A stretch of DNA of 64,000 nt, from the IMG/VR virus record IMGVR_UViG_3300007539_000017, one strand, 5' to 3'. Each line of letters begins with the position of its first letter. Position 1 is the stretch's first letter. The translations under genes and the position numbers were made by a program. Shown here piece after piece: positions 6,973 through 27,640 of the stretch. The DNA is from an uncultured virus (IMG/VR IMGVR_UViG_3300007539_000017) (Duplodnaviria > Heunggongvirae > Uroviricota > Caudoviricetes). A model generated the notes under the pieces. It was not told the DNA's origin, did not search any database, and saw nothing but the letters and a program-made list of their open reading frames with translations.

Positions 6973-7302
6973 ATGTACAATTCAGATGACCAACCATTAG
7001 GAGTTTCAGAAGTAGCAATAGTTTTATCAGTCAAGCCAGATACTGTTTCATCATGGCAAATTAGAAAAATGATGCCTATACCAGACGCATTAATTAATGA
7101 TGGCCGAACAAGATTGTGGCGTATGAAGACAATATTAGACTGGGCTAGTGCAACTGGTCGCAATCAAAAAGGTATTGACTCACGCAAAGCCGTCTCCTTG
7201 TTGGCACAACATGACAATAAAGGTAAAAACATTGAAGATTTTACATCACGTGCATCTGGATTTGATGACCAATGGGGTAATTTAGGAGACTATAAAGAGT
7301 AA
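6973..7302 (+). CDS. HTH DNA-binding protein (excisionase/AlpA-like), probably leaderless
   Basis: LGVSEVAIVLSVKPDTVSSW...P.PD...RLW....I..W; TATAAT 6 nt before the ATG. Confidence 0.8.
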   Translation: MYNSDDQPLGVSEVAIVLSVKPDTVSSWQIRKMMPIPDALINDGRTRLWRMKTILDWASATGRNQKGIDSRKAVSLLAQHDNKGKNIEDFTSRASGFDDQWGNLGDYKE

Positions 7303-7478
7303 AAGCCACCTCACAGGGTGGCCTTATTTACTCTATATTAGTACTCTGAAAGCGAGGGAAACAGGAAAGTAAATCTGTTTATAACCCTTTTCCGTTGCTC
7401 TTGCGAGTTCCGTTCCTGACTTAAACTTTCAGTAAGGAGGACTATGTTCCTTTTATAAAGAAACACAATGCCTTGTAA
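7297..7478 (-). ncRNA. Candidate small RNA: 5' hairpin, CCUCCUU, structured domain, terminator
   Basis: TTGACA (7509-7504) and TATTAT upstream; CTGAAAG/CTTTCAG helix; GCCACC/GGTGGC terminator plus T-run. Confidence 0.5.
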
Positions 7479-7572
7479 TAAATAATACATAAATTAAATT
7501 TATTGTCAAATCATATTATTAAATTATTTTTTTAAAATTTGTTTGCATATATTGTTTAAGTGACTATATTAA

Positions 7573-7761
7573 ATGATTATGAAAGACAAACTAACAAAAG
7601 AAGAACAACAGTTTGTGGAGAACACTTTACATAGACTTGAATATGAAAGAGGAATGTATATGCCACTTACTGACCAAGAGTTAAGAGAGCTATCACCAGA
7701 ATTAAGAGAAGCTGTTTTGATAGCTAGAGATAGAGCTATGGTAACAGGATATGATGAATAA
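7573..7761 (+). CDS. Hypothetical protein
   Basis: ORF after an AT-rich promoter region. Confidence 0.6.
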   Translation: MIMKDKLTKEEQQFVENTLHRLEYERGMYMPLTDQELRELSPELREAVLIARDRAMVTGYDE

Positions 7762-7850
7762 AATGAAAGAGGGTCTTTCGACCCTCAATCATATATATCA
7801 TAACAGGAAGGAGTCACTTGACATGGAAATGTCGATTGACTTCTTATACA
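7760..7850 (-). ncRNA. Candidate small RNA: hairpin ending in CUCCUUCC, then terminator
   Basis: TTGTCA...TAATCT promoter-like site upstream; GAGGGTC-GAAA-GACCCTC-TTT terminator. Confidence 0.45.
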
Positions 7851-7914
7851 GGAAGATTAACACACTTCTTGTTTTTATGACAACTTTATTTACGCAAAAA
7901 GAAGGAGAAACAAA

Positions 7915-8184
7915 ATGGACATAGGTCAAACTATGAGTGAGTTGCCTACTTATCACACAGGTGGAGCACCATCAATTCTAGAAAGGAACTCTGAATGGGT
8001 AGAAATGATGGACAGAGCACCTCGTAATGAGTGGGTTGTGTTAGAAAAACTAACTAATAATGTTGTTGCAAACAACACAAGAATAAGAAACAGGGTATGG
8101 TCATTAAATAGAAAGCAAGATGATTTCGAGTTTACATCCCGTACACTCAATGATGAAATCATTATGTTTGGAAGGAGAAAATAA
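7915..8184 (+). CDS. Hypothetical protein
   Basis: SD AAGGAG; coupled to the next gene. Confidence 0.7.
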   Translation: MDIGQTMSELPTYHTGGAPSILERNSEWVEMMDRAPRNEWVVLEKLTNNVVANNTRIRNRVWSLNRKQDDFEFTSRTLNDEIIMFGRRK

Positions 8185-9152
8185 TGCCAGCCAATGTAGA
8201 AACAATGTACAGTGCGGTAGAAACACCATGGCACAGAATTGGTACAGTTACTACCGAAGCAGTTAATTCAAAGCAAGCACTTAAGATTGCAGGATTAGAT
8301 TGGAAAGTAAGTACTAGACCTATCTTTACAGGTGGTATAGATGCAGGTGGACAAGAGCACTCTATAGAAATTCCAGATACATTTGCTACTGTTAGAGATA
8401 GCGATGACACCATCTTAGGTGTTGTTGGTGACAGATATCAAGTCGTACAAAACAGACAATGTTTTGATTTCTTAGACACTGTTGTAGATGATAGCGAAGC
8501 TACATACGAAACAGCAGGTTCACTAAATAATGGAAAGATTGTTTGGATGATGTTGAACCTAGGAAAAGAAATCAAAGTAGATGAGGACAAAACAGTTCCT
8601 TATCTTTTAATGGTTAACTCACATGATGGTAGTACATCATTAAGAGGATTACCTACACCTATTCGAGTTGTGTGTCAAAACACTTTAAGACTTGCTTTAA
8701 ATAGTCAAGCTTACAAAGGTTTTTCATTTAGACATACACAAAACATAGATGGAAGAATTGCACAAGCAAGAACTCTTCTTAATCTTAGTTACGAATATGT
8801 TGATGGATTCCAAGAAGAAATGAATAAATTATTAGATACAACTGTAACTGATGATAAGTTCTACGATATCTTGGAAACTCTTATGCCTATTCCAATGGCT
8901 AAAGAGAATAATGCAAGCCAAGTATCACGAGTAAATCAACAAAGAGCAACAATTGAAAAATTGTGGTACGAACCAGAGTATTCGAATCAACAAGGAACTG
9001 CATGGTCATTACTTAATGCAGTATCCAATTATGAACAATGGCAGTCCCATTTACGTGGTAATACATCACGAGATGAGAGAATTGCTTTGAAAACAGTAAC
9101 AAATACTGAAAGCCCACTAACCCAAAAAGCTTGGAACTTAGTAAGGGTATGA
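8184..9152 (+). CDS. DUF932 / phage-plasmid TIGR03299-like protein
   Basis: VETM....PWH..G, AGLDW.V, QN..CF.F, NSHDGS, RVVCQNTL. Confidence 0.9.
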   Translation: MPANVETMYSAVETPWHRIGTVTTEAVNSKQALKIAGLDWKVSTRPIFTGGIDAGGQEHSIEIPDTFATVRDSDDTILGVVGDRYQVVQNRQCFDFLDTVVDDSEATYETAGSLNNGKIVWMMLNLGKEIKVDEDKTVPYLLMVNSHDGSTSLRGLPTPIRVVCQNTLRLALNSQAYKGFSFRHTQNIDGRIAQARTLLNLSYEYVDGFQEEMNKLLDTTVTDDKFYDILETLMPIPMAKENNASQVSRVNQQRATIEKLWYEPEYSNQQGTAWSLLNAVSNYEQWQSHLRGNTSRDERIALKTVTNTESPLTQKAWNLVRV

Positions 9153-9478
9153 AGTATTTAAAACCATTAGATGATTGGCTAAGTAGAAACCCATTGCCTA
9201 GAAATGCAATGACGGATTCCTCAGCCATTCATCTTGGGGTTACTTTAGGTTTTGCAAACATACCAAGAACAGAAGCAGAAAATATAGCTAATGCTAGTGC
9301 AACATACTTTTCAATAATTAAACACGATTTAAAAAATGAAAAGTTTACTAAAAGATACAAGCCAGAAGTTTATATTGATAGCGCAATGAAAGTCTATGAC
9401 TTTATGTTAAGTGAGTGGATTGTTATGAATGATTCACCACTGTTTAAAATTATGGACGGAATGGAAGAGGAGGAATAA
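9149..9478 (+). CDS. Hypothetical protein
   Basis: ATGA overlap with the upstream gene. Confidence 0.65.
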   Translation: MKYLKPLDDWLSRNPLPRNAMTDSSAIHLGVTLGFANIPRTEAENIANASATYFSIIKHDLKNEKFTKRYKPEVYIDSAMKVYDFMLSEWIVMNDSPLFKIMDGMEEEE

Positions 9479-9658
9479 TAGATATAATAACATTAGAAGA
9501 ATTTATAGAACAAGGTAGTTCTATAGATGATTATTGGAATTATTTAAATACATTAGAGGAGGAATAATGATTATTATTGATGACAATAATACTTGCAAAT
9601 GTGGTGCTTATTATCAAAGTAATAATTATTGCACTAATGGACATATAGAGGAGGAATA

Positions 9659-9853
9659 ATGAGTGAAGTTTATAAATATGAAAGTATTGACCCAAAGCAA
9701 ACAAGAAATGAATTAAGTGTTACTTTTAGCTTTGATACTGACACTGATTTGTCTAAAGCAGAAGCATATATCACATCTTTACTTACTGAAATAGATAAGG
9801 GTGTTGAATATAGTTTTGATATTTGGACATTAGCTAGTGAGGATTACTCTTGA
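9659..9853 (+). CDS. Hypothetical protein
   Basis: SD GAGGAGG. Confidence 0.65.
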   Translation: MSEVYKYESIDPKQTRNELSVTFSFDTDTDLSKAEAYITSLLTEIDKGVEYSFDIWTLASEDYS

Positions 9854-9932
9854 TAAATCTAGTAGTAGAAGAAACTTTACATTTTACACCATTCATGTTA
9901 GGCTTATTAGTGAACAGGAGGAGTAATTAAAA

Positions 9933-10478
9933 ATGATTTATGAAACAATTACCAAACAAGAGTGGTTGACTATAGTACAATGGATTTCTCTTAGATGGGA
10001 GCATATCAAATGGGAAGAAGAACAAATTAAATCTTTTTACGAAGATTTTAAAATGTTTCCTGCTGATGTAGTATGGACATCACTTAATCGTTATTATGAC
10101 AATGGTCACAAGTATTTTAATACAGTTGAATTTCGCAAAGCATGTTTAGATGAATATCAATTCTTTGCACAAGATTTAGATAATAAATTTAAATTAACTA
10201 CAGGTGAAATTGTAGAAAAAAATGCAGGTGGCTTAATTGAGTTTTTAAAATTAAATGGCTATGAATCATTTGCACATGGTGCATGGGCAATGTTAATGAA
10301 TAGACTCAACAACAATAAGTTAGAAAAATATGAAAGACATATGTCTGATGTATTTGAAAAAAATGAATCATGGGAGTCTGCTAAAGACAAATGGTTACAA
10401 ATGTTTCAACCAGAGTGGCGTGTTGAATGGTTGGAAGAAAGAAGAGAAGCACGTGATAAGGAGAAATTAAATGGCTAA
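9933..10478 (+). CDS. Possible helicase loader/inhibitor (G39P-like N-terminus)
   Basis: Helical W...F...P.DVV..SL..Y....YF...EFR pattern; adjacent to ssb. Confidence 0.45.
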   Translation: MIYETITKQEWLTIVQWISLRWEHIKWEEEQIKSFYEDFKMFPADVVWTSLNRYYDNGHKYFNTVEFRKACLDEYQFFAQDLDNKFKLTTGEIVEKNAGGLIEFLKLNGYESFAHGAWAMLMNRLNNNKLEKYERHMSDVFEKNESWESAKDKWLQMFQPEWRVEWLEERREARDKEKLNG

Positions 10479-10935
10479 TAATAATAGTGTTACTTTGGTT
10501 GGAAATATGATGCAACCAGAGATTAGAAATACACAAACTGGAAAAATGGTTGCTAAAGCTAGAATGGTTGTTAAGACCCCTGGCGAAAACAATGATGATA
10601 TGTGGGTTAGTGTTACTGCTTGGGAAAACCTAGCTAATAACTTAAACTATTCATTTCCTAATGACAGTAAAACTATCAGAGTTATGGTAACTGGTAGATT
10701 ACAAGAAGATAAATGGACAGGACAAGACGGAAGCGAAAAGAAAGCTATGAATATAGTAGCCGACCAAATCGCTGTATGTCTTGACTATCAAGTAGCTAGT
10801 GGTATTACTTATGCAGGAGACGGAGCAGATAAAAGCAGAAGTCAATATGCTAACAATACAGAAATGGCACAGGACATTTTAAATGCACAACCTGTTGCTA
10901 GAACTGACTACGGAGAGAATGAAGCACCATTCTAA
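10471..10935 (+). CDS. ssb: Single-stranded DNA-binding protein
   Basis: VTLVGN...PEIR, VTAWENLA, RVMVTGRL...W, acidic tail ending EAPF. Confidence 0.92.
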   Translation: MANNNSVTLVGNMMQPEIRNTQTGKMVAKARMVVKTPGENNDDMWVSVTAWENLANNLNYSFPNDSKTIRVMVTGRLQEDKWTGQDGSEKKAMNIVADQIAVCLDYQVASGITYAGDGADKSRSQYANNTEMAQDILNAQPVARTDYGENEAPF

Positions 10936-11234
10936 TGAATTGGCAAAGTTTATCTGATTGGGCTAATGAGGAAAGTGACATTCTTGAAGAATTGTCTCCA
11001 GAAGAAACATTAGCCCAGATGAACCAAATGGATAAAGTTAAGTGGTTATTCCTTAACAATCCAGAAGGTGTGTGTCATAACGTGTTCATGGAGTACTATA
11101 TCCCACGATTTGGTGCTTTAATCTGGACTTTAAGACATGAAGAAAATTGGATAATAGAAAAAGTAAAATGTGACTTGCACGATTACCACAAGTCGCTACA
11201 ATATAAGTATATATATCAAGGAAGGAGCATTTAA
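10935..11234 (+). CDS. Winged-helix-like protein
   Basis: IPRFGALIWTLRHEE.W.IE pattern. Confidence 0.5.
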   Translation: MNWQSLSDWANEESDILEELSPEETLAQMNQMDKVKWLFLNNPEGVCHNVFMEYYIPRFGALIWTLRHEENWIIEKVKCDLHDYHKSLQYKYIYQGRSI

Positions 11235-11235
11235 A

Positions 11236-16218: not shown

Positions 16219-17388
16219 TTAGACTCTCCCTTCTGCGTGTGCGATAGAATCTACAAACAACGCTTTGTAAGCATCAACTTCTTCCAACATTGTTTTGCTT
16301 CTATCTTTTCTAGTGACACAACCGATACCATTGTAATGTCTACGCAAGTATCTCTTAAGTTCTGGCCATCTATTTTGCTCATTAACAAACTGTACAAATT
16401 TGTCAACATCAAAGATGTCCAATACTTTAGTAACGTCAGTATATGCTAACTGCTCAATCATGTATGTATAGTTATACATAGCATTGAGGAAGCTAGTACG
16501 CATAATTGCACGCTCTGAGCTATAAGTACCTTTAGGGAACCTAAGCTCAATAGTATTGTGACGTGTTCTCATTACAATGTAGTTTCTAGTTGTATTAAGT
16601 CCACGTCTGTTATCACGTGATATGTCACTAAATAGTGTTTCAACACTAGGTAGTCTGTACCATCTAGCCCAACCACCAAGCTTGCGTTGTCCAATCAATT
16701 GAATGAACCTTGCAGCTCTTTCTGGGCTATGGTGTCCTTGAACATATAACCTTGCATCAGCAAAATGCTCAATCAACTTGTAGAATAGAACAAGTTGTTG
16801 GTCGCTGAATGCACCAAGTGGTATATGCATATGACCACCAGTATTTTCACCATAATGGCCTTGCCATAGGTATGTACTGAATGTTGCTTCGAACACACTA
16901 TAAGCGTTTGATTCTCTAGCAAAATCAGGTGTCATAGGTGCGAACACAAACTCACGGCCACCATTATTAAGTGAACCATCAGTCTTAACAGTACACATAG
17001 GCTTGTATCTAAATTGTTCCCAACCTTTAGTAGTAGATTGGTTTCTTAGATAGTTGCGAATGTTTCTATTAGCTTTCGCCACAACAATGTTGAACTCTAA
17101 GTCTTGGTCACTTCTATTCAATGAGTGAATCACAGACCCATCTTCAACTTCTAGTTCTGACTCAAAACCAACTGGTAGGCCATAGCGTACCAATTGCTCT
17201 CGCAATGGTCTGAGCTCATCTGGTTGAATAGATATGCTATCAATAGGAGCATATAAATTACCATTAAGCCCATAAACCATAGACCTACCTGCTAATTGTT
17301 CAGTGCCTAAGCGTTGTTCTCTGCTAAAGAAATCACGCTCTGGCGCATCAACACGTACTCTGTTGCCTTTCGGCTTTAGTGTAGCCAC
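16219..17388 (-). CDS. Putative amidoligase (COOH-NH2 ligase, glutamine-synthetase fold)
   Basis: GFESELE, KTDGSL..GGREFV..P, TGGHMHI, NTIELRF..GT. Confidence 0.85.
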   Translation of the reverse strand: MATLKPKGNRVRVDAPERDFFSREQRLGTEQLAGRSMVYGLNGNLYAPIDSISIQPDELRPLREQLVRYGLPVGFESELEVEDGSVIHSLNRSDQDLEFNIVVAKANRNIRNYLRNQSTTKGWEQFRYKPMCTVKTDGSLNNGGREFVFAPMTPDFARESNAYSVFEATFSTYLWQGHYGENTGGHMHIPLGAFSDQQLVLFYKLIEHFADARLYVQGHHSPERAARFIQLIGQRKLGGWARWYRLPSVETLFSDISRDNRRGLNTTRNYIVMRTRHNTIELRFPKGTYSSERAIMRTSFLNAMYNYTYMIEQLAYTDVTKVLDIFDVDKFVQFVNEQNRWPELKRYLRRHYNGIGCVTRKDRSKTMLEEVDAYKALFVDSIAHAEGRV

Positions 17389-17392
17389 TGTC

Positions 17393-18511
17393 TTAGTCCT
17401 TTCCGAACAACTTCTGTTGTTCTATAATTAGTGCTTCTTGTGCTGTGATGTCTTCTTCATCCTCAACACTTCCAGTTATGAACCAGTCTTCACTAATGTC
17501 ATCTGCACTTTCTGGAATATAATATTTAGGGTCATCGACCTCAATATCAATTGCTTCCAAATGCTCGCCGTCTGTATAATTTACACAGTCGGCTCCACAA
17601 TCTGGCCAGTATTGGTTGACGTCCATCTCAGCATTGCACTTCTGACATTTAATCTTATTGTCACGTACATGCCATTGGAAGTCTTCCATCATGTCTTGTG
17701 GAGCATCATAACCATAAGCCACCATCATTTCCACAATCATGTCAGCACATTCTTCGTCTGACCATGCATCCTGTGGGATAAGACCCCATTGGTCGCATAA
17801 TTCAACATCGAATAGCTGAATAGTAGCTTCTGGTTCGTCACCAATTGTGCATGAAGCACCTTGGTCACGATTGACTGGCTTAGACTTAGCTGGTTCTGTT
17901 AGTTTATTGACGTAGGACTTAGTACCCCACTTCATCTTGGCTGAATACTCCAAGTATGAATCGTTTGAATACCAAACGCCATCTGACCACTCACCACTAG
18001 CCTCGTTGATAATGTAGGAATCTCTACGCAACTTAGGATTAGCTGTGAGAATGACTAGCTTGTTATAGCTACCAATCACATTACCCAAGTGGTCGATGTA
18101 CCTACTGTCATCAAGTGCAGTTAGTTTCTGGTACTGCAAGAACGTTTCATTAAAGTAACGAGTGTCACTTATGTCACGCTTTGCAGGTGGATGAAACTGA
18201 TGTGGCAATATACCGTTGTGTGCAAATACTGTTTGAGTATCTACATTGAACGGATGATTATTATCCATACATACTGAACCATGAGTTGCTATTCTCATGT
18301 GAACAAGTACGTCAGCATCATCACCATATTTGTCAATTACTTCGTTGAACTTACTAATAAATGGTTTAAGTTTCATAGTCTTAAAGACTCGAATCTTACC
18401 TTTATCATCAATCCAACTAATGCCACCACCATCACTATTATGTTTCCACATAGTTTCAAGTGTTGCATTGTCTATTTTTGCACCCTTAGGGATGCTTGCT
18501 ATTATACACAT
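17393..18511 (-). CDS. Class II (Ntn) glutamine amidotransferase with acidic C-terminal extension
   Basis: N-terminal MC, N.DG.G, HMRIATHG, HPF, HNG, SDT. Confidence 0.9.
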   Translation of the reverse strand: MCIIASIPKGAKIDNATLETMWKHNSDGGGISWIDDKGKIRVFKTMKLKPFISKFNEVIDKYGDDADVLVHMRIATHGSVCMDNNHPFNVDTQTVFAHNGILPHQFHPPAKRDISDTRYFNETFLQYQKLTALDDSRYIDHLGNVIGSYNKLVILTANPKLRRDSYIINEASGEWSDGVWYSNDSYLEYSAKMKWGTKSYVNKLTEPAKSKPVNRDQGASCTIGDEPEATIQLFDVELCDQWGLIPQDAWSDEECADMIVEMMVAYGYDAPQDMMEDFQWHVRDNKIKCQKCNAEMDVNQYWPDCGADCVNYTDGEHLEAIDIEVDDPKYYIPESADDISEDWFITGSVEDEEDITAQEALIIEQQKLFGKD

Positions 18512-21393
18512 TAGAGTGTACCTCCTTCTTCTGTTATTAATTCCAGAGTGTCAAGATGGTCAACGACCATTCCACGCTCTGTTGTATCAGCAAACAACCT
18601 ACTTAGGTCGTAGCTGTTTGTTTCTCTACCAAGCTTGATAAGGTTTTGGTATCTGTTTCTATTACCTTCTGTTGATAATATATAGAACCATAGCTTATCA
18701 TCCCAGTAGCTAACTGTCAAATCGTTGAAGAACTCACGATAAAAACCGTTTTGTTCTCCATCGGTTGTGTTGTAATATGGCAATTCAGAAGCAACTAAGT
18801 TCTTAGTCATTCTGTAAACTGCATCTACAAACTCAACTCTAGCTAGGACTCTGTCCTTGACAGTAGTAGAGTTGAAATATCTAAGCTCGATAGTATTCTC
18901 TTTAACTAAGTTAAAGCCATCATACTTACCATCGCCACCTCTATCAGTACGTCTACGTAAAGCAGTTGCTGCAATAATATCATTTGTATTACTGAGCACT
19001 CTGTTTCTACGCTCATGATATGGCATGCGCCAGTGAGCCCATCTATCTGAATGTCTCTGAGCAACTTTGTACAACAAAGTATTCTCAGATGCAACTTGAC
19101 CATCATTTATAAATACATCATGTTGTCTCATGAAGTAATCAATGAAAGCCCAAAGATGTCCAGTAGTAAATGCATCATGGTCAATATGTATATGAATACC
19201 ATTGCCAAAGTTTCTACCTCCACCTTCGTTGAACATTGCAACATATTTGTCTTTCAACAATTGCCAGAAGTCATCTGGTACTTGTTGCCATGCATCTAGG
19301 TTCATTGGTTGTGTAACAACCTCTTGACCCCAAGCAGAACCAGAGTCAACTGAACTATCTTTGACTCGGTATGCTAACTGAACGCGTGAGCGTTGTACTT
19401 CACTCCATGCTGGGTGAAAGAGCTCAATTAGTCTACGATGTGTATTTTCCATATCGTTTGCATCTTGATGCTCATTTCTTCTACCAACAATCTCTAACTC
19501 CATACCATAGAATGGACCCATCTCTGAGTTTATGATATGTGATTGAGTAATAGGACTTCCACTACTCATAGAGCGAGAAAATGTCATCGATTGTTGATTA
19601 GACATTAGCTCTGTGTTGGTCCAAGTAATTTGTCCAACAGGCTTAATCAATCTACCATCTGAATGTGTAGATGTACTAACCTGCCAAACAGGGAATGTAA
19701 AGTCCCAACTATTTTTCTCTAGATTCATCTCTGGTAATCCATGTCGAATTACATGTATAGGTGTTCTAGATACTCGTATCACTCTTCTGAGATTTGGTCT
19801 AGCTGACCCATTGTATCTTTGAGATAGATAATTCGAGAATTGACTCGCATCATATATCGTAAGGAACATGCTGTGGTCATATATGCTATTACCATCATCA
19901 TCTTGAGTAGCAAGGTCTTCATCAAAATACAGTGCGGTGTATCCTGTTGAACGTACTAGACCTTGTTCAAGGTCATCGGCATTCATATCCAATGTCTCTT
20001 CTCTAGTGAATAGTTGGAATCCACCATCTTGTAATATATCCCAAGCTTGTACTGACTCTGCTTCACCCATATCAGAATATGAATACCAGTCAAAGGTATT
20101 ACCGACATGGCCAATAGACTCATATGCACATTCATCAGGTCTAAAGATATCCTCTTCTGAAGCCCATGATAAATACTTCCTAGCTTCAAGACTAAGTTCC
20201 ACTGTTGGACCATAGTTGTTCTCTTCTAAGAAGTCACATGGATAGGCTGTCACGTCTTCCCATTGATAGGCAGATGAGTTTCTAGTTGTAGGAACTCTAC
20301 GCCAGAAAGGAACTAGTGTTTGATTATAAATCCAACCAGTTCTATCCCCATCTTCGTCCATCATGATTGAACGTAGGAATTGCCTTGTAGGTCTTTGCTC
20401 ACGACCGACACCGTAAGGGAATCTTACGAATGCATTGGTATGTGGGTCAAAGCCAGCAGTATATGTAGATGCACATAGAAAGCAGATTGAGTATCTGCTT
20501 GCATTGCGCTCCATGTTAATTGCAAACACAGTATTGTTTTTGTTAACATGTGACATACATATTTTGCATTCCTTATACTGTCTGAGACTACTACGAGTAC
20601 TAGGCTTGTAGATAACTTGTTCAAAGATGTCCCACTTGAACGTATCGTAGTAACCCCAGAATGGAGTAGCTTCTTCGTTCAATGAATAGGATATATTGTG
20701 ACTAATCTTAGTCACACCATCTTCAAAGTAAGGAATGATGTAAGACGTTGAGAAACATCTATCTACGCCATTCTCATCTTGAATGATTGTGAATATATAG
20801 TAGATATTACTCGCTGCTACATCTTGAGCATTTTGTCTGTAGTACTTATGTTTAATACTGTTATTAAACGGATTACTAAGAAACCTCTGCTGAAATTGCT
20901 TTTCAAGGCTTTCAGCTACTTTATACAAGTAATAAGGTTGCTCAACTATACCTGCGTTATTAAATGAACTAGCAGGAACCTGACGAGTTTCGTTCATGTT
21001 AGCAAAAGCATTAGCTAATCTATGAATCTCGTCATGTTCATGATGAACAGTCCTACCCAATAGTGGAGTAGGGTCTTCATTTTCTGCACGACTTTTAATA
21101 CAACTACACATAGTAAGCATACGTTGTATGTTCTTATGTGATACGATATAGATTTTAGACTCAGACCAAAGGCCGTAGTCTATAACGTCTGTATCAGTTC
21201 TTTCACTATAAGGAACCCTATAGTCTGCTACTTCGTGTAAGTGCTGGTTTCTCAACCTGTCATACAGATAATCCCAGTTAATATCAGCATCGGTAATGTT
21301 ACCTCTGTTGTGATATGTGGTTTCATCATGTAATGAGAACAAAGTTGGAAACTGTTCTTTTACTTCTGTAATGGAATTAAGTGTCCAAAACAT
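18511..21393 (-). CDS. Large putative amidoligase (~620-aa N-terminal extension plus C-terminal ligase domain)
   Basis: YGMELEI, KDSSV, EVVTQP, GIHIHI, NTIELRYFNSTT; CxxC...CxxC in the extension. Confidence 0.83.
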   Translation of the reverse strand: MFWTLNSITEVKEQFPTLFSLHDETTYHNRGNITDADINWDYLYDRLRNQHLHEVADYRVPYSERTDTDVIDYGLWSESKIYIVSHKNIQRMLTMCSCIKSRAENEDPTPLLGRTVHHEHDEIHRLANAFANMNETRQVPASSFNNAGIVEQPYYLYKVAESLEKQFQQRFLSNPFNNSIKHKYYRQNAQDVAASNIYYIFTIIQDENGVDRCFSTSYIIPYFEDGVTKISHNISYSLNEEATPFWGYYDTFKWDIFEQVIYKPSTRSSLRQYKECKICMSHVNKNNTVFAINMERNASRYSICFLCASTYTAGFDPHTNAFVRFPYGVGREQRPTRQFLRSIMMDEDGDRTGWIYNQTLVPFWRRVPTTRNSSAYQWEDVTAYPCDFLEENNYGPTVELSLEARKYLSWASEEDIFRPDECAYESIGHVGNTFDWYSYSDMGEAESVQAWDILQDGGFQLFTREETLDMNADDLEQGLVRSTGYTALYFDEDLATQDDDGNSIYDHSMFLTIYDASQFSNYLSQRYNGSARPNLRRVIRVSRTPIHVIRHGLPEMNLEKNSWDFTFPVWQVSTSTHSDGRLIKPVGQITWTNTELMSNQQSMTFSRSMSSGSPITQSHIINSEMGPFYGMELEIVGRRNEHQDANDMENTHRRLIELFHPAWSEVQRSRVQLAYRVKDSSVDSGSAWGQEVVTQPMNLDAWQQVPDDFWQLLKDKYVAMFNEGGGRNFGNGIHIHIDHDAFTTGHLWAFIDYFMRQHDVFINDGQVASENTLLYKVAQRHSDRWAHWRMPYHERRNRVLSNTNDIIAATALRRRTDRGGDGKYDGFNLVKENTIELRYFNSTTVKDRVLARVEFVDAVYRMTKNLVASELPYYNTTDGEQNGFYREFFNDLTVSYWDDKLWFYILSTEGNRNRYQNLIKLGRETNSYDLSRLFADTTERGMVVDHLDTLELITEEGGTL

Positions 21394-22626: not shown

Positions 22627-22629
22627 TTG

Positions 22630-23298: not shown

Positions 23299-24246
23299 TT
23301 AACTCTTCCATGAGTTTATCCTTTCTGTTAATGCACGTGCTTCATCTTCAACACGTACTCTTTCTTTTATTATTTTGTTTAGTACTGATTGGTGAACATG
23401 CACCATACTAAACTTAACTTCATCATCCAGTAAGTCCCAATACTCTTCAATTGTATCGTTACTCATAATCTGTTTGTAGAAGTCGTTGTACAAGCTAATG
23501 TAAGCTGAGTTCCAATCAAAGTCAATAAACTTATCGTTTACATATTCTCTGTAGTTAAACAACTCACCATATGTTTCTTTCTCAACAATGATGCTGGTAT
23601 CAAATACAATAACTTGTCTCATGTGTAGGTCATACACATCAGAATAGTTATCGAAGAAGTTTTGAGTAATATACATAGCTTTGTAGTTCTCTTGTATGTA
23701 ATCCCATGCATGATAGTCTTTGTAATGTTCAAGAGCACCAACCATCTTAATTTTATCTATAAGAGTATCTCTTTCTTCTTTAGTAAGTCGGTCTTTGTTA
23801 ACGTCAGGCTTACCTATTTCCTTTCTAAAGTCTTTCTCAACAACACTAGACAACCTAGCAAGTTGTTCTGTCTTACGACCATGCTCAAAGTTAGGATTAG
23901 GTAAATCGTCTATAGTATTGATTATATAAACATCGTTTTCGTTACACTCTATTGTTAGTTTGTGTCTAAAGTTCCAGTTCTTCTCTGTAACCATGTCTTT
24001 ATAAATTCTTTCTGCTTTGTTGACACCTTTAAATCTCCAGTCCATGTACTCATTGCCAAAGCCTAAGTAAAGACCAGCAGGCTTCCAAGTAGGCCATCTG
24101 GACTTAACATTCCAGTTAGAAAACTCAGTACCTTTGTATTTCTCTGGTCTCCACCTGATGAAGTCTGACTTACTGAAGTGTGTTAAATTAATCGTAATCA
24201 TTTCATTATTAGAATCAGCATGGAAGTTGGTTTTGCCTAAAGCCAT
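23299..24246 (-). CDS. Hypothetical protein
   Basis: Probable start MALGK (SD AGGAGGAG); aromatic-rich. Confidence 0.75.
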   Translation of the reverse strand: MALGKTNFHADSNNEMITINLTHFSKSDFIRWRPEKYKGTEFSNWNVKSRWPTWKPAGLYLGFGNEYMDWRFKGVNKAERIYKDMVTEKNWNFRHKLTIECNENDVYIINTIDDLPNPNFEHGRKTEQLARLSSVVEKDFRKEIGKPDVNKDRLTKEERDTLIDKIKMVGALEHYKDYHAWDYIQENYKAMYITQNFFDNYSDVYDLHMRQVIVFDTSIIVEKETYGELFNYREYVNDKFIDFDWNSAYISLYNDFYKQIMSNDTIEEYWDLLDDEVKFSMVHVHQSVLNKIIKERVRVEDEARALTERINSWKS

Positions 24247-24259
24247 TTTCTCCTCCTTG

Positions 24260-24937
24260 TTAGCCACTGTATGTTTCACTTTCTGTAAGGTCTTGCATTG
24301 GGTAGTGAACCTTGATTTCCCTTACTCTCTTGCCAGTCTGTCTAGCATAAGCTGCTGCGTAGATTCGGCATTGGTTGAGGTGAGCTTGTATGTCTTGCTC
24401 TGTAAGCTTGCTGTAGTTCTTATAGTCAATCACTGTGAAGCTGTCATCACTGTGTAGCTCGATAAGGTCAGCAGAACCTTCGTACAAGATACCAGCAACT
24501 GGTGCCTTAACTACATGCTCTGTAAGATACTCTGCGTTGTGGTCAATGATTCCAAGGAATCTATTGAATAAAGTTACTGCGTAACTTTCCTCAACTTCGT
24601 TGAGTTCGATGACTACGTCATTGTCAAGCTTGCTTTTAGCTAATGTGTAATCACTTAGCTTGTGATTAACTGCAGCCTCAAACACTTCGTGCATGTATGA
24701 ACCAAACTCTGTCATGTTAGCTTCGAAACCTTCTGGTTTATCTGCTGTGTGTAGAACTTGGTTGTCATACTCACCAAGTCTGTATGACATCTTTGATGGT
24801 GAAGCAGGAACTTGGTTCTCCTGTTGCATTCTGTAGTAATTTGTGTACATCATTTCCATATCATTCTCACCATCGAACTGGGATTCCGCGAACCCGAGTT
24901 TGTCCCTTCGCTCATTCATAATGTCGTGCATAGTCAT
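24260..24937 (-). CDS. PD-(D/E)XK nuclease (RecB/Cas4-like)
   Basis: GSYMHE..E, G.ADL, VIDYK, Q...YA. Confidence 0.85.
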   Translation of the reverse strand: MTMHDIMNERRDKLGFAESQFDGENDMEMMYTNYYRMQQENQVPASPSKMSYRLGEYDNQVLHTADKPEGFEANMTEFGSYMHEVFEAAVNHKLSDYTLAKSKLDNDVVIELNEVEESYAVTLFNRFLGIIDHNAEYLTEHVVKAPVAGILYEGSADLIELHSDDSFTVIDYKNYSKLTEQDIQAHLNQCRIYAAAYARQTGKRVREIKVHYPMQDLTESETYSG

Positions 24938-24997
24938 ACTTGTTTCTCCTTAGGTAGGGGCCTCAGTAAATTAAAAGGCCTTTTTTACACTACCGTT

Positions 24998-25029
24998 TAA
25001 GTGGTCCGTACAAATTTTTTGGGTTTTCC
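24998..25029. repeat. Direct repeat 1 flanking the terS-like gene
   Basis: TAAGTGGTCCG...ATTTTTTGGGTTTTCC; second copy at 25527-25559. Confidence 0.7.
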
Positions 25030-25067
25030 AAATCCACCTCAGGTGTGCAAAATAGGCTAAAATTACC

Positions 25068-25529
25068 TTGTATATGGGTAGAAAGACTAAATTAACTCCT
25101 GAAATTCAAGAGACCATATGTAATTGGCTTAAATTAGGCTATTACCAAGAAGATGCAGCCGTTATGGCTGGTATTGCTCCGTCTACTTTCTATGATTGGC
25201 TTAAAAAAGGCGCAGAAGAAGACAGTAAGCAAGAGGAAATAAAGGCCTTGACTGATGGAGGTACCTCTTTACCTGCAATTCCTGAGGGTAGTGACCTAGA
25301 GGTTGCTTATATTTATTCGGAGTTTTCGGAGGCTGTAGCAAGGGCTCGAGCTGAGGCTGAGGGTGCTCATATAAAAAACATTAGAAGAGCTGCTGATAAT
25401 GGGACATGGCAAGCTAGTGCTTGGTTCTTAGAGCGAAGTTTTCCTAAGAAGTGGGGTAAGAGGTCATCTCTAGAAATAGACGCACAGGGAGATGAACCTA
25501 TTAAATTTCAGATTTCATACGGAGACTAA
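25068..25529 (+). CDS. Terminase small subunit-like HTH protein
   Basis: GRKTKLTPE, AA..AGI..STFYDW, WQASAWFLER..PKKWG. Confidence 0.75.
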   Translation: MYMGRKTKLTPEIQETICNWLKLGYYQEDAAVMAGIAPSTFYDWLKKGAEEDSKQEEIKALTDGGTSLPAIPEGSDLEVAYIYSEFSEAVARARAEAEGAHIKNIRRAADNGTWQASAWFLERSFPKKWGKRSSLEIDAQGDEPIKFQISYGD

Positions 25530-25559
25530 GTGGTCCGCGCATTTTTTTTGGGTTTTTCC
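25527..25559. repeat. Direct repeat 2 flanking the terS-like gene
   Basis: TAAGTGGTCCG...ATTTTTTTTGGGTTTTTCC. Confidence 0.7.
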
Positions 25560-25675
25560 TGCCCATCCCAAAATAATTATCTTTATATCGAACATTTGTT
25601 CGAACATAGTATATAGCCTTTATTTTGTCTTAATAGTCCTAGCATTGCATAGCTATCCTGTAGTTAAATCTACTT

Positions 25676-25975
25676 ATGGAAAAATATGACTTACATAGTG
25701 ACTTAGATGATGTTATGTCTGTACCTGGGTTTTATAAGAAAGCTGCTTGTAAAGGACATGATAATCAAGATGATTTCTTTCCAGAGCGAGGAGGTTCTAC
25801 TATTGTTGCTAAGGCTATTTGTGGAAAATGCCCTGTTCAAAAAGAATGTTTGGAATATGCTGTAGAGCGAAAAGAACGTTTTGGAATTTGGGGAGGTAAA
25901 TCAGAAAGAGAAAGACGCGCCATTAGACGAGAAAGACGCCTTAAGGCAAATCGTCCTCGTCCAAATGGTAAATAG
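25676..25975 (+). CDS. whiB: WhiB-family transcription factor (second copy)
   Basis: AAC...FFPERG...AKAICGKCPVQKECLEYA....RFGIWGG.SERERR. Confidence 0.95.
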   Translation: MEKYDLHSDLDDVMSVPGFYKKAACKGHDNQDDFFPERGGSTIVAKAICGKCPVQKECLEYAVERKERFGIWGGKSERERRAIRRERRLKANRPRPNGK

Positions 25976-26301
25976 CATCTAGTTGTTCTACTGAGAATCT
26001 ACCTAAGTAGCGACCTTCTGCTCTTTTAGATTTTTTTGGTTCGAACTTTGCTCGTTCTATTTCACGTTTACTAGCAAGCCCTAAGCCAATCATTCCTAAT
26101 ATACTCATAATATCTCCTATAATTAAAGATTTATAGTAACACTTAAATAAAACAGTGATAGTTTTTAATGTTAAAAATATGTTAAAAATTTTTTATTTTT
26201 TTTACTTTTCATTCATACCAATGTGGTATTCTTATAAAGCCTCAACAAAAGTTGTAGGTATAAAGGAAAGTCAAAGACTTTCACGGAAATAGGAGAATAC
26301 T

Positions 26302-27483
26302 ATGAGTAGTAGTAAAGACTTTATAAAAATAAAGTTAAATACATTAGGGGTAAGAACATTACCTCATCCATTCGCTAAAGACATACAAGAAATTTATTGT
26401 TATGTTCAGGCTCAATCGTTAAAGGAAATAGATATCCCTAACGACCCAAATCCAAGAGACCCAATTACAGATAAGAAATCATTTGATGAATTGTCTGAAA
26501 TTGTTGCACAAGCTGATACACACCCAGATATGTTTGGGTATGCTGCAATTGGATTACACATTTATGCAAGTGAAGCTGAATTAGATAATAAAACAGGTGA
26601 ACTTACATTAAGTCTATCTAAATCAAAAACAACTAGAGATGGTCTTGTAAATGGTAATCACTTATTAAAAGCAATTCAAGATGCAGATGAAGTTCCAGAG
26701 GACAGATTTGTTAGAGCATTTATTATGACAAAAGTTCCAGAACTTAAAAAACTTGACATATCAGTTGGGTTGAATTCATCTAATGAAGTATCCAAAGAAT
26801 CTATTTGGAACTATCAAGGTAAACTTGATTGGATTAAAAAATCTCTTAAAAATACTGAGTGGGAAGATTTAGTTGTTTATCACCAAGGTGACACAGGTAA
26901 TTTTCCAGTAAGAGATATTCTTACAACTCTATATACATTGAGAATTGATGGAACTGAAATGAAATTCAAACCTGAAATAGATACTGTTGGTTATGGTCGT
27001 AAACATACAGTTATGAGCATATATGATAACGATGAGAATATTGATTTATTTTCTGTTAGAGATAAAGATTTAGCGAAAATCTTAAAATTTCAAGACTATA
27101 TGCAATTTACTGCTGAAAAGCTTTGGAAAGAAGCTGGTGGTGATGAAGAGACATATATGTTTAAAACATATTCTGCAGCAAAATGTCCTAGCAATCCTAC
27201 AGAAGGAAAGCCAGACCGAATGTTACAAAATGGTGTATTAGTGCCATTGTTAGCAGCCTTTAGAGCTTTAATAGCTTTTGATGGAAAGTTTGATTACCAT
27301 AAAGCAAAAACTATTTGGGATTCTATTGGTGCAGAGTTAATGTTAGAACCACACATGACAGCAAACAATTATGGTGAGCTAAGACCTGTTGGTTATGACA
27401 AAACTTTCTGGATGAACTCTTTTATGAAAGTTCTAAAAGAAGCAAAAATGCAATATCCAAAGTACAAAAAAAAGAGTGCTTAA
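26302..27483 (+). CDS. AIPR-family protein (ParB-like fold), putative
   Basis: NPRD, G..I.A, GLVNGNH, ISVGLNSSN pattern; stand-alone unit with its own SD and terminator. Confidence 0.6.
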   Translation: MSSSKDFIKIKLNTLGVRTLPHPFAKDIQEIYCYVQAQSLKEIDIPNDPNPRDPITDKKSFDELSEIVAQADTHPDMFGYAAIGLHIYASEAELDNKTGELTLSLSKSKTTRDGLVNGNHLLKAIQDADEVPEDRFVRAFIMTKVPELKKLDISVGLNSSNEVSKESIWNYQGKLDWIKKSLKNTEWEDLVVYHQGDTGNFPVRDILTTLYTLRIDGTEMKFKPEIDTVGYGRKHTVMSIYDNDENIDLFSVRDKDLAKILKFQDYMQFTAEKLWKEAGGDEETYMFKTYSAAKCPSNPTEGKPDRMLQNGVLVPLLAAFRALIAFDGKFDYHKAKTIWDSIGAELMLEPHMTANNYGELRPVGYDKTFWMNSFMKVLKEAKMQYPKYKKKSA

Positions 27484-27507
27484 AGATATTATCCTTCACT
27501 AAGAATT

Positions 27508-27538
27508 TACCTCGTCTAAAATGGCGAGGTATTTTCTT
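27508..27538 (+). terminator. Intrinsic terminator
   Basis: TACCTCGTC/GGCGAGGTA stem followed by TTTT. Confidence 0.6.
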
Positions 27539-27586
27539 ATCTTTAAATACCACACCCTATCTTTTGAAATGTTAAAGTAATGTTAA

Positions 27587-27640
27587 GTCGGCATCCACAC
27601 CGACCTCCTCCCATCATCGGCTCTCTTAGGAGAGCTGTAT
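27587..27640 (+). ncRNA. Candidate small RNA with a CCUCCUCCC motif
   Basis: GTCGG/CCGAC hairpin, CCTCCTCCC (27604-27612), CGGCTCTC-TTAG-GAGAGCTG hairpin. Confidence 0.45.

What the first reader, a model, noticed from the sequence alone, without database searches (positions are those of the whole stretch)
7297..27640. Recurring small-RNA architecture: 5' hairpin, CUCCU motif, 3' hairpin or terminator
Seen: 7297-7478(-) has CCUCCUU after a 5' hairpin; 7760-7850(-) has CUCCUUCC at the 3' end of a hairpin; 27587-27640(+) has CCUCCUCCC between two hairpins. Each has a promoter-like site, lacks an ORF and ends in a GC hairpin; 1735-1795 adds a fourth anti-SD element. Established: C-rich anti-SD motifs drive target pairing in S. 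aureus RNAIII and in alphaproteobacterial CCUCCUCCC ('cuckoo') sRNAs. Inference: a phage-encoded set of anti-SD sRNAs that represses SD-dependent translation of host or early phage genes. With the tmRNA mimic and the leaderless genes, this could be an RNA-based translation-control system.
Basis: partly seen in the sequence, partly recalled or inferred. Interest (0 to 1): 0.7.

Follow-up and report, generated by a model that had tools for sequence, protein, structure and literature searches.

The report
One conserved phage small RNA, three unrelated look-alikes
Of four proposed "anti-ribosome-binding-site" small RNAs in this phage, one belongs to a widespread, undescribed phage RNA family with an invariant exposed UCCUCCCAUCA, one is a different conserved structured RNA whose CUCCU is not conserved, and two are ordinary features.

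Summary
A covariance model of element 3 finds only itself in the window: 88 bits, next best 8.8.

- **Element 3 (27587-27637, +) is real.** Of these, 119 carry UCCUCCCAUCA even though 6-9 of those bases were left free. A conserved TAnnnT -10 box sits 5-9 nt upstream. Hairpin 2 covaries and carries UNCG or GNRA loops. In one subgroup hairpin 2 is a canonical terminator, so there the element is a stand-alone RNA of about 55 nt. In the window it has no U-tail and reads toward the late genes.
- **Element 1 (7302-7475, -)** has a strong promoter and a terminator. Its core is a different conserved structured RNA. Its CCUCCUU is absent from all relatives and predicted to be base-paired.
- **Element 2** is the reverse complement of the ribosome-binding site of a 33-codon + strand ORF.
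- **Element 4** is a very stable hairpin, absent in the four relatives that hold that region.

CCTCCT is not enriched once true ribosome-binding sites are removed. The "coordinated system" is not supported. An anti-SD pairing role for element 3 is plausible but untested.

The parts
27570..27578 (+). P1: TGT + TAAAGT, an extended -10-type box, 8 nt before the first base of element 3
   Evidence: TAnnnT lies 6-8 nt before GTCGG in 34 of 34 unique aligned sequences, 16 of them with TGn. T19, A20 and T24 are invariant columns. In the wider set it is present in 38/38, 22/22 and 24/24 sequences of the three groups. The sigma-70 consensus scan does not call it.
27587..27604 (+). Element 3, hairpin 1 (GUCGG / CAUCCACA / CCGAC), at the inferred transcript start
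   Evidence: The stem is invariant apart from one G-C to G-U change. Six loop versions occur among the 120 matches.
27605..27618 (+). Element 3, single-stranded linker CUCCUCCCAUCAUC. UCCUCCCAUCA (27606-27616) is invariant.
   Evidence: Unpaired probability is 0.89-1.0. UCCUCCCAUCA is present in 119 of 120 pattern matches although 6-9 nt there were left free.
27619..27636 (+). Element 3, hairpin 2 (GGCUCUC / UUAG / GAGAGCU). It has no U-tail in the window.
   Evidence: The stem is 7-9 bp in 30 of 30 unique variants, with 2-4 pair types at levels 5-7. Loops are UNCG in 8 and GNRA in 8 of the 30. G-U pairs fit only the + strand. 99.6% of cells are paired, against 36-51% when the partner is slid. 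Group B relatives add a U-rich tail in 19 of 22; one search scores one as a terminator.
27655..27672 (+). P2: TGC-TAAGAT-N6-ATG, a promoter-like box placed so that the glycosyltransferase mRNA would start at its ATG (leaderless)
   Evidence: TGnTAnnnT-N5-8-ATG occurs in 22 of 34 sequences and in 29 of 39 group A sequences. Group C sequences have an SD plus start codon instead (22 of 24). The leaderless start is an inference.
7482..7509 (-). Promoter of element 1 (TTGACA-16-TATTAT)
   Evidence: 11 of 12 consensus matches.
7434..7471 (-). Element 1, 5' hairpin (7471-7439) and CCUCCUU (7440-7434)
   Evidence: The motif's mean unpaired probability is 0.05-0.18. The motif is absent from all 5 other sequence versions of the family.
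7346..7432 (-). Element 1 conserved core: P0 7432-7425 / 7353-7346; GUCAGGAA 7420-7413; GCAA hairpin 7407-7398; P3 7388-7384 / 7359-7355; invariant UAUAAACAGAUUNACUUUCCUGUU 7383-7360
   Evidence: 86% identical to relative G002 over 7352-7422, against 66-69% for the neighbouring gene stretches (5743-6095, 6973-7167, 8173-8840). P0 is 8-9 bp in 6 of 6 sequences with 5 different sequences. P3 is 4-5 bp in 5 versions. P2 has 4 versions. Model R2 scores 99 bits.
7302..7325 (-). Intrinsic terminator of element 1, shared in both directions with gene 6973-7302
   Evidence: 9 pairs plus tail on the - strand; 7 pairs on the + strand.
7806..7813 (+). GGAAGGAG, the Shine-Dalgarno site of a 33-codon ORF.
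   Evidence: It lies 9 nt before ATG 7823.
7823..7924 (+). Probable small gene (33 aa, hydrophobic centre), overlapping the start of gene 7915
   Evidence: codon score 0.22, which is borderline. No homologue was found in the fetched loci.
7769..7786 (-). GC hairpin with a U-tail on the - strand only
   Evidence: No credible promoter feeds it.
1735..1795 (-). Element 4: two-tier hairpin (11 bp + 8 bp) with CCUCCUU (1766-1760) in a 13-nt loop, followed by AUUUUU
   Evidence: -30.5 kcal/mol, z -6.9. Loop unpaired probability 0.98. Absent upstream of the tRNA-like element in 4 of 4 relatives.

Best explanation
The four elements are four different things.

**(1) 27587-27637(+) belongs to a conserved RNA family.** The family occurs in a large group of aquatic siphoviruses. 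These phages encode WhiB, so the hosts are probably Actinobacteria. The element sits between the small-terminase/WhiB genes and the HNH-large-terminase genes. It is transcribed from its own TAnnnT -10 box, so the RNA begins with hairpin 1, exposes the invariant UCCUCCCAUCA, and ends with hairpin 2, which covaries. In one subgroup hairpin 2 is an intrinsic terminator, which gives a free RNA of about 55 nt. In the window's subgroup there is no U-tail, so the RNA is also, or mainly, the 5' end of a late transcript. A second promoter-like box then sits directly before the first ATG.

The conserved single-stranded seed between variable hairpins is what base-pairing sRNAs look like. My committed mechanism is therefore pairing with a G-rich, SD-type sequence (...UGAUGGGAGGA...) on a conserved target, probably in the host, which blocks ribosome binding. 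This is inferred, not shown.

**(2) 7302-7475(-) is a promoter-to-terminator unit with a different conserved RNA at its core.** The core has an outer stem, a GCAA hairpin, a possible pseudoknot and 24 invariant bases. In relatives it lies at the 5' end of early mRNAs, so it is most likely a cis-acting regulatory RNA. The CCUCCUU beside it is specific to this phage.

**(3) 7806-7813** is the SD of a small + strand ORF.

**(4) 1735-1795(-)** is a strain-specific stable hairpin downstream of the last gene (1844-2092) of the leftward gene block. It probably acts as a terminator or stabiliser.
For: **Not one family.** Model R1 of element 3 scores 88 bits on itself and at most 8.8 bits elsewhere in the window.

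**Element 3.**
- Found once, on the TerL strand, in 63 of 80 TerL-related loci with TerL identity of 66-100%.
- The P1 box is present in 34 of 34 sequences and in 84 of the 84 that have enough upstream flank.
- Hairpin 2 covaries: 3 pairs change on both sides and 99.6% of cells are paired. It has 7-9 bp in 30 of 30 variants, with UNCG or GNRA loops in 16 of 30.
- U-rich tails follow hairpin 2 in 19 of 22 group B variants, and the scan calls one a terminator.
- The - strand reading frame is broken or meaningless in groups A and C, and GAT GGG AGG shows no synonymous change in 119 sequences.
- No Rfam match.

**Element 1.** Promoter and terminator. Core 86% identical to G002, where it follows a TTGACA-16-TAATAT promoter. 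Compensatory stems. The motif is buried and not conserved. The ORF's codon usage looks non-coding.

**Element 2.** SD, 9 nt, then ATG.

**Element 4.** Absent in 4 of 4 relatives.

**Motif counts.**
Against: - No strand-specific transcript data exist for any element, and no target of element 3 was found. The best complementary sites in the window are ordinary coding sequence, at -22.8 kcal/mol or weaker, and TGATGGGAGGA-like sites are at chance level, 13 against 12 expected.
- In the window's own subgroup hairpin 2 lacks a U-tail (2 of 39 have one), so a discrete sRNA is not shown here.
- In group C an SD-led gene follows directly, which fits a cis-leader as well as a trans-acting RNA.
- In about 11 of 18 group B variants a conserved small basic protein on the opposite strand reads through the element. 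Part of the U-tail signal there could come from its lysine codons.
- The element 1 family has only 6 distinct sequences. The ORF overlapping it keeps its frame in G002.
- The actinobacterial host is inferred from WhiB alone.
Confidence: 0.75

Rival explanations
1. All four elements are trans-acting anti-SD sRNAs that form one phage system. Together with the tmRNA-like RNA and the leaderless genes, they shift translation away from SD-led mRNAs.
For: - The motif is exposed in elements 3 and 4.
- Two early genes and the first gene after element 3 have promoter boxes placed for leaderless starts.
- A tmRNA-type tRNA-like domain lies about 65 nt downstream of element 4 on the same strand (39.3 bits).
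Against: - The elements share no homology.
- Element 2 is an SD on the other strand.
- Element 4 is absent in 4 of 4 relatives that keep the tRNA-like element.
- The element 1 motif is buried and not conserved.
- The motif is not enriched beyond real SD sites.
- About half of the late genes themselves carry SD sites (my reading).
Confidence: 0.04
2. Element 3 acts only in cis, as the 5' leader of the late (HNH-terminase-structural) transcript. Its invariant bases would be read by RNA polymerase, Rho, a nuclease or a phage protein, as in antitermination, attenuation or mRNA stabilisation. On this view the likeness to an anti-SD is incidental.
For: - It is promoter-proximal and holds a fixed position before the late genes in 63 of 80 loci.
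- Groups A and C have no terminator tail.
- A C-rich, G-poor unpaired stretch is what a Rho loading site looks like (recalled knowledge).
- A two-hairpin, promoter-proximal layout recalls the put RNAs of HK022 (recalled).
Against: - In group B the element is closed by a terminator and followed by a gene on the other strand, so it leads nothing there.
- Terminator-like sites inside the late operon are not above chance, 11 against 8.1 expected.
- In group A the next gene appears to have its own promoter placed at its ATG.
Confidence: 0.3
3. Conservation of element 3 reflects something other than a + strand RNA: a protein coded on the - strand (...ADDGRKSV), or a DNA site such as cos/pac or an operator.
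For: - A conserved small basic ORF on the - strand ends inside the element in about 11 of 18 group B variants.
- The element lies among the packaging genes.
Against: - That reading frame has no start codon, or is cut by stops, in groups A and C and in 7 group B variants.
- Wobble positions never vary across 119 sequences.
- Compensatory changes in hairpin 2 alter the encoded amino acids on both sides.
- The G-U pairs and the UNCG/GNRA loops make sense only as + strand RNA.
- Recurrent contig ends fall roughly 750-1250 nt upstream of the element, not at it (my reading).
Confidence: 0.05
4. Element 1 encodes a small protein (42-50 aa, 7466/7490 to 7338) rather than an RNA.
For: - The ORF fills the unit between promoter and terminator.
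- tblastn finds 58% identity over 31 aa in G002, in the same frame.
Against: - The codon score is -0.36 to -0.49, below all 729 real-gene windows.
- The ATG at 7490 lies upstream of the -10 box. The GUG at 7466 has only AAGG, 4 nt away.
- In the L168 type the frame is shifted by a 1-nt length difference and hits an in-frame UAA (my reading).
- Variation falls in paired stems with compensation, while 24 consecutive bases never vary.
- No Pfam or PHROG hit.
Confidence: 0.07

Closest known systems
'Cuckoo' sRNAs of alphaproteobacteria (RSs0680 / SmelC397 / NfeR1 group)
   Same: The literal CCUCCUCCC string, an anti-SD-like C-rich motif, hairpin modules, and a proposed block of ribosome binding (abstract and passages of PMC4615179).
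   Different: - Cuckoo RNAs have 2-4 hairpins, each carrying the motif in its loop. Element 3 has the motif once, in the linker between two hairpins.
- Only group A has CCUCCUCCC. Groups B and C have CUUCCUCCC and AUAUCCUCCC.
- The invariant part extends into CAUCA.
- The setting is a phage and probably Actinobacteria, not Alphaproteobacteria.
- No Rfam hit.
C-rich-loop sRNAs of Gram-positive bacteria (S. aureus RNAIII and RsaE; actinobacterial 6C/B11). Recalled, not read here.
   Same: Short RNAs whose unpaired C-rich stretches pair with G-rich SD regions. 6C occurs in the presumed host phylum.
   Different: Those motifs sit in hairpin loops and are host-encoded. No family scored at E <= 10 apart from chance-level hits to unrelated families.
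put RNAs of phage HK022 and other promoter-proximal antitermination RNAs. Recalled.
   Same: About 60-70 nt with two stem-loops, lying directly downstream of a phage promoter at the head of a long operon.
   Different: No sequence likeness. The group B copies are themselves terminated. No excess of terminators to be read through. Function was not testable here.
Riboswitch-like or protein-binding 5' leaders (compared with the element 1 core)
   Same: A block of invariant bases framed by stems that covary, sitting promoter-proximally just before the SD of a gene in relatives.
   Different: No Rfam family matches. The ligand or protein is unknown. In the window the core is detached from any gene and is followed by a terminator.

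Membership tests
Cuckoo RNA family | 2 to 4 adjacent hairpins, each with CCUCCUCCC in the hairpin loop | tested here: not met
   Definition taken from PMC4615179. In element 3 the motif occurs once and lies between the hairpins. The hairpin loops are CAUCCACA and UUAG.
Cuckoo RNA family | CCUCCUCCC is the conserved sequence across members | tested here: not met
   The linker is CCUCCUC in 58, UAUCCUC in 34 and CUUCCUC in 27 of 120 matches. The conserved string is UCCUCCCAUCA.
Cuckoo RNA family | Alphaproteobacterial host | tested here: inconclusive
   The phage encodes WhiB (PF02467, E 3.2e-21), which points to Actinobacteria. The host itself was not identified.
Any Rfam 15 family | Covariance-model score at or above the gathering threshold | tested here: not met
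   No hit at gathering threshold in the window. E-value scans of the four elements gave only sub-threshold hits to unrelated families. Relatives of element 1 gave no hit at E <= 0.1, and relatives of element 3 none at E <= 1.
Stand-alone bacterial/phage sRNA gene | Own promoter | tested here: met
   Element 1: 11 of 12 consensus matches. Element 3: conserved TAnnnT. Elements 2 and 4: not met.
Stand-alone bacterial/phage sRNA gene | Intrinsic terminator at the 3' end | tested here: inconclusive
   Met for element 1. For element 3 it is not met in the window (no U-tail; 2 of 39 in group A) but is met in 19 of 22 group B relatives.
Stand-alone bacterial/phage sRNA gene | No translated ORF | tested here: met
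   Codon scores of the overlapping ORFs look non-coding. The - strand frame through element 3 is broken in groups A and C. Translation itself cannot be tested here.
Stand-alone bacterial/phage sRNA gene | A transcript of the predicted size and strand exists | not testable with these tools
   Only unstranded contigs from RNA libraries could be laid on the sequence. See Tried and rejected.
Anti-SD base-pairing regulator | Exposed C-rich seed complementary to SD sequences | tested here: met
   Met for element 3 (unpaired 0.89-1.0) and element 4 (0.98). Not met for element 1 (0.05-0.18). Partly met for element 2 (0.45).
Anti-SD base-pairing regulator | An identified target whose translation is repressed | not testable with these tools
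   No outstanding site in the window. The host genome is not known.

The most novel reading that the evidence does not exclude
Element 3 is the founding member of a phage-borne regulator conserved across aquatic actinophage-like siphoviruses. It is made at the switch to late genes. Its invariant UCCUCCCAUCA imitates the 3' tail of 16S rRNA. It would either soak up SD-bearing host and early mRNAs, or act as a decoy for a factor or defence nuclease that recognises the anti-SD tail. Late genes that start leaderless (TGnTAnnnT-N6-ATG directly downstream) would escape. This would be an RNA-based take-over of start-site selection.
Probability: 0.12. Interest if true: 0.85.

Novelty: new variant of a known kind. 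Interest (0 to 1): 0.6.

Why it matters
Phage-encoded regulatory RNAs are few, and almost none are known from phages of the abundant, hard-to-culture aquatic Actinobacteria. Element 3 is short and sharply defined. It is present in at least 119 viral contigs, and its 11-base exposed seed does not vary even where the large terminase has drifted to about 60% identity. Constraint that strong points to a conserved partner, and the seed states what to look for: UGAUGGGAGGA. The element also marks a conserved promoter at the head of the packaging and structural genes. It sits beside what looks like a leaderless start, which makes the choice between SD-led and leaderless translation during infection directly testable. 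The core of element 1 adds a second RNA motif that is not in Rfam. Knowing that elements 2 and 4 are ordinary saves follow-up work.

Tried and rejected
- **RNA-library contigs.** Four metatranscriptome runs were laid on 1400-8200, as Logan contigs, which are unstranded. No contig covered 7308-7600. In run X11 one contig stopped at 7307 and the next began at 7601.
- **Close relatives for comparison.** Megablast and blastn against GenBank phages gave no match. Proteins 6973-7302 and 7915-8184 gave no relatives in viral contigs. The DUF932 loci (70 loci, mostly 30-39% identical; the weakest, L071, 44% over 42 residues) held none of the elements. The metagenome scan with a 21-mer from element 1 returned only a 100% identical copy.
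- **Genome collection scan for element 3.** It gave 7 matches, about the number I estimate by chance. Five of the 7 lie inside long ORFs of GC-rich genomes, and model R1 gives them only 12-22 bits, so I treat them as chance.
- **Targets of the element 3 seed.** No outstanding duplex in the window. TGATGGGAGGA with up to 2 mismatches occurs 13 times against 12 expected. A 9-nt complement inside the HNH gene recurs as at least 8 nt in only 16 of 48 relatives and in no group C relative, so I dropped it.
- **Antitermination idea.** Terminator-like sites at 27600-47000 number 11 against 8.1 expected.
- **The relaxed pattern for the element 1 core** mostly hit coding DNA by chance. Only the 7 loci already known were real.
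- **Literature.** The seed strings gave only unrelated primer-type matches among the 15 of 279 papers listed. 'phage-encoded' + 'small RNA' + 'anti-Shine-Dalgarno' gave one unrelated paper.

Full report
**Setting.** The window is a siphovirus genome. The genes on the left are early, replication and recombination genes: Rad52-like, SSB, DUF932, a replication initiator and ParB-like. A block at 16-21 kb on the - strand encodes an amidoligase and a glutamine amidotransferase. From 25 kb onward come the small terminase, WhiB, an AIPR protein, a glycosyltransferase, an HNH endonuclease, the large terminase, portal, protease, capsid and a 2737-aa tape measure. Most genes carry AGGAG- or GGAGG-type Shine-Dalgarno (SD) sites. 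WhiB (PF02467, E 3.2e-21) points to an actinobacterial host. That WhiB is confined to Actinobacteria and their phages is recalled knowledge, in line with the listing of PMC8612146 (listing and abstract start only). GenBank phages hold nothing close.

**The observation.** The motif count alone means little. CCTCCT occurs 28 times on both strands against 17.7 +/- 4.3 in shuffles. Thirteen of the 28 lie 3-13 nt before a start codon that opens an ORF of at least 30 aa, so they are ordinary SD sites seen from one strand or the other. The remaining 15 are at expectation.

**Are the four related?** No. A covariance model built from element 3 and its relatives scores 88 bits at 27585-27648 and at most 8.8 bits anywhere else in the window, with filters off. 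Each element therefore has to be judged on its own.

**Element 3 (27587-27637, +): conservation.** A large-terminase scan of viral contigs returned 80 loci with TerL identity of 66-100%.
- A pattern for the element matched 63 of the 80, once each, always on the TerL strand and about 0.5-1.9 kb upstream.
- Thirteen of the 17 loci without it have under 700 bases of upstream sequence. The other four (L089, L093, L094, L102) have 848-1735 bases and may truly lack it.
- The order of genes is conserved: small terminase, (p65), WhiB, variable inserts (AIPR in the window), the element, a variable gene or none (glycosyltransferase in the window), HNH, zinc-ribbon protein, p68, large terminase.
- The element is 98% identical in phages whose TerL is only 71% identical.

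**Element 3: the invariant seed.** A last, looser scan left free the 6-9 bases in front of CCATCA. Of those matches, 119 had UCCUCCCAUCA. The one exception has no second hairpin and looks like chance. Three groups emerge by the bases in front of the seed: A (CCUCCUC, which includes the window), B (CUUCCUC) and C (UAUCCUC).

**Element 3: evidence that it is a + strand RNA.**
- Hairpin 2 has 7-9 base pairs in 30 of 30 distinct versions, with two to four pair types at three stem levels.
- Thirty of its cells are G-U or U-G pairs, which would be mismatches on the other strand.
- Its loops are UNCG in 8 and GNRA in 8 of the 30.
- On an 18-sequence alignment, 99.6% of cells pair against 36-51% when the partner is slid, and three pairs change on both sides.
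- Hairpin 1 is nearly invariant, so it says nothing about structure.
- A TAnnnT box lies 6-8 nt before the first G of hairpin 1 in 34 of 34 aligned sequences. Only the T, A and T are invariant, which is the pattern expected of a -10 box. Sixteen also have TGn. In the wider set, at 5-9 nt, it is present in 84 of the 84 sequences with enough flank.
- The sigma-70 consensus scan missed it because there is no -35. That actinobacterial promoters are typically TANNNT without a strong -35 is recalled knowledge.

**Element 3: what follows hairpin 2 differs by group.**
- **Group B (22 variants):** 19 have a U-rich tail. In L318 the scan calls hairpin 2 a terminator (9 pairs, then TTTTCTTTTT), with another terminator just upstream of the unit. 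The next gene is on the other strand. There the element is an insulated RNA gene of about 55 nt.
- **Group C (24 variants):** an SD and start codon of the HNH gene follow in 22.
- **Group A (39 variants, includes the window):** only 2 have a U-rich tail. In 29, TGnTAnnnT-N5-8-ATG follows. In the window this is TGC-TAAGAT-TTTATT-ATG at 27655-27672, a promoter-like box placed so that the next gene's mRNA would begin at its ATG.

**Element 3: the protein-coding alternative.** Read on the - strand, the seed encodes DGR. In about 11 of 18 group B variants a conserved small basic ORF ends ...ADDGRKSV inside the element. In the other group B variants and in all of groups A and C that frame is short, lacks a start, or is nonsense. 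The nine bases GAT GGG AGG never change at wobble positions. The compensatory changes in hairpin 2 alter the encoded residues on both sides. I conclude that the constraint is on the RNA.

**Element 3: known families.** The element matches no Rfam family. The full-text searches listed nothing relevant to its seed string.

**Element 3: how it works.** This part is inference. An invariant unpaired stretch between hairpins that are free to vary is the usual anatomy of a base-pairing sRNA seed, and the group B copies show that the RNA can stand alone. The seed's complement, UGAUGGGAGGA, contains a strong SD. I therefore put about 0.5 on base pairing and about 0.35 on the target being a ribosome-binding site, most likely in the host. 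The window holds no outstanding partner, and a partial complement in the HNH gene is not general. A purely cis role as leader of the late transcript remains a serious rival for groups A and C (0.3). An excess of internal terminators that would call for antitermination was not seen.

**Element 3: the cuckoo family.** It is not a cuckoo RNA. That family is defined by 2-4 hairpins, each with CCUCCUCCC in the loop (PMC4615179, abstract and passages). Here the motif is single, lies in a linker, and is CCUCCUCCC in only one of the three groups.

**Element 1 (7302-7475, -).**
- The unit is well formed: TTGACA-16-TATTAT (11 of 12), a 5' hairpin, and a 9-pair terminator with a U-tail shared with the convergent gene 6973-7302. 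The fold z-score is -4.1.
- The 50-codon ORF starts upstream of the -10 box and has non-coding codon usage.
- In relative G002 the stretch 7352-7422 is 86% identical, while the neighbouring gene stretches (5743-6095, 6973-7167, 8173-8840) are 66-69% identical. It is inverted relative to those genes, so it lies on their strand. It follows a TTGACA-16-TAATAT promoter and sits about 335 nt before the homologue of gene 6973.
- Pattern scans found four more sequence versions. In those, the motif lies about 10-15 nt before the SD of a homologue of the window's 89-aa protein 7915-8184 (pairwise E 4e-9).
- Across the six distinct sequences, the outer stem (8-9 bp) has five different sequences at a fixed position. 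A GCAA-capped hairpin has four versions. A third stem (4-5 bp) has five versions. GUCAGGAA and 24 consecutive bases never change. CAGGAA could pair with UUCCUG to make a pseudoknot with the third stem, but both are invariant, so this is untested.
- No Rfam family matches. Model R2 found no further copies in 74 sources.
It is predicted to be paired (unpaired probability 0.05-0.18) and is absent from every relative.
- My reading is a cis-regulatory RNA of early transcripts. In this phage it has become a separate promoter-terminator unit. Read-through of its terminator would run antisense to gene 6973-7302.

**Element 2 (7760-7850, -).** CUCCUUCC is the complement of GGAAGGAG at 7806-7813. That site lies 9 nt before ATG 7823 of a 33-codon + strand ORF, which overlaps the start of gene 7915. 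The ORF's codon score is borderline (0.22), and no homologue was found in the fetched loci. The only - strand promoter-like matches are 9 of 12 and would start at about 7790, downstream of the motif. The hairpin at 7769-7786 does have a U-tail on the - strand only, and I cannot explain that.

**Element 4 (1735-1795, -).** This is a very stable two-tier hairpin (-30.5 kcal/mol, z -6.9) with CCUCCUU in a 13-nt loop, followed by AUUUUU. It lies downstream of gene 1844-2092, the last of the leftward gene block, and about 65 nt before a tmRNA-type tRNA-like element. It has no promoter of its own. The 73-codon ORF across it looks non-coding. In the four relatives that keep the tRNA-like element, the hairpin is absent. 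A contig from an RNA library spans it (X11, 1640-4029, unstranded). A terminator or stabiliser of the leftward operon is the simplest reading. An exposed anti-SD loop acting in trans is not excluded, but it has no support from conservation.

**Verdict.** The common motif led to grouping them with two ordinary features, and the proposed system does not hold. Element 3 deserves follow-up as a new, sharply conserved phage RNA with an anti-SD-like seed.

Noticed in passing
window 1591-1670 (-): A tRNA-like element of about 80 nt matches the two ends of the tmRNA model (39.3 bits, E 2.6e-14, below the gathering score of 47). It has a 7-bp acceptor stem with a G-U at the third pair and a T-arm, but no mRNA-like part. 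ARAGORN does not call it. It is 82% identical in relative G003, occurs in 4 viral contigs, and in 3 of the 5 sequences examined (window, L154, L194) is followed by a gamma-glutamyl cyclotransferase-like gene.
   Followed up: partly
window 6663-6972 (+): A leader of about 310 nt runs from a TTGACA-17-TATACT promoter (11 of 12) to gene 6973. It holds two look-alike hairpins (about 6857-6895 and 6911-6949) whose loops are alike (UCUGAAAC...GUGACAG) while their stems differ with compensation (AGAAGG/CCUUCU against GAGAGAG/CUCUCUC). It also holds four orphan GGAG sites. Gene 6973 itself follows TGCTATAAT-N6-ATG, which suggests a leaderless start.
   Followed up: no
window 6280-6540: In three RNA-library runs the deepest contig on 1400-8200 is a piece of about 255 nt with nearly the same ends (6281-6537, 6280-6535, 6288-6540). 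It covers the 3' two-thirds of the - strand ORF 6320-6592 and 40 nt beyond it. The contigs are unstranded, so this is only a hint of an abundant RNA.
   Followed up: no
window 7542-7581 (+): TTTGCA-17-TATATT is followed within 2-8 nt by two in-frame ATGs (7573, 7579). The first gene of the rightward early operon may be leaderless.
   Followed up: no
L196 / L197 (relatives), about 95 nt upstream of their tRNA-like element: The string UGAUGGGAGG occurs there, a perfect 10-nt complement of the invariant seed of element 3. It is not present at the matching place in the window or in L194/L195, so it may be coincidence.
   Followed up: partly
L318 4029-4199 (-), L319 4169-4312 (-) and other group B relatives: A conserved small basic protein of 47-56 aa (...NRKxRRxLAxKIRxDL...ADDGRKSV) is encoded antisense to element 3. 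Its last roughly 14 codons lie inside the RNA gene, and its stop codon sits in the loop of hairpin 1.
   Followed up: partly
window 26302-27483 (+): A gene of the AIPR (abortive-infection-related) family (PF10592, 25.3 bits, just over the cut-off) with its own terminator sits as an insert just upstream of element 3. L098 has a 39% identical homologue at the same place; the other 13 relatives examined show none.
   Followed up: no
window 1045-1440, 16219-21393 (-), 27670-28656 (+): Genes for a gamma-glutamyl cyclotransferase-like protein, a class-II glutamine amidotransferase, a 960-aa amidoligase-domain protein and a GlcNAc-type glycosyltransferase. The set resembles phage DNA-hypermodification modules (the link to hypermodification is recalled).
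   Followed up: no
whole stretch 1400-8200: The same sequence is held, with all or nearly all sampled words, by runs labelled freshwater, aquatic and salt-marsh from about 20 studies in 2017-2018, including RNA libraries. This is either a very widespread phage or a shared laboratory or reagent source.
   Followed up: no
window 27667-27694 (-): A - strand promoter-like site (TTGGCA-16-CATAAT with TG, 10 of 12) would transcribe antisense through element 3. On that strand GGGAGGAGG is followed 9 nt later by ATG-CCG-ACT-TAA, a three-codon ORF.
   Followed up: no
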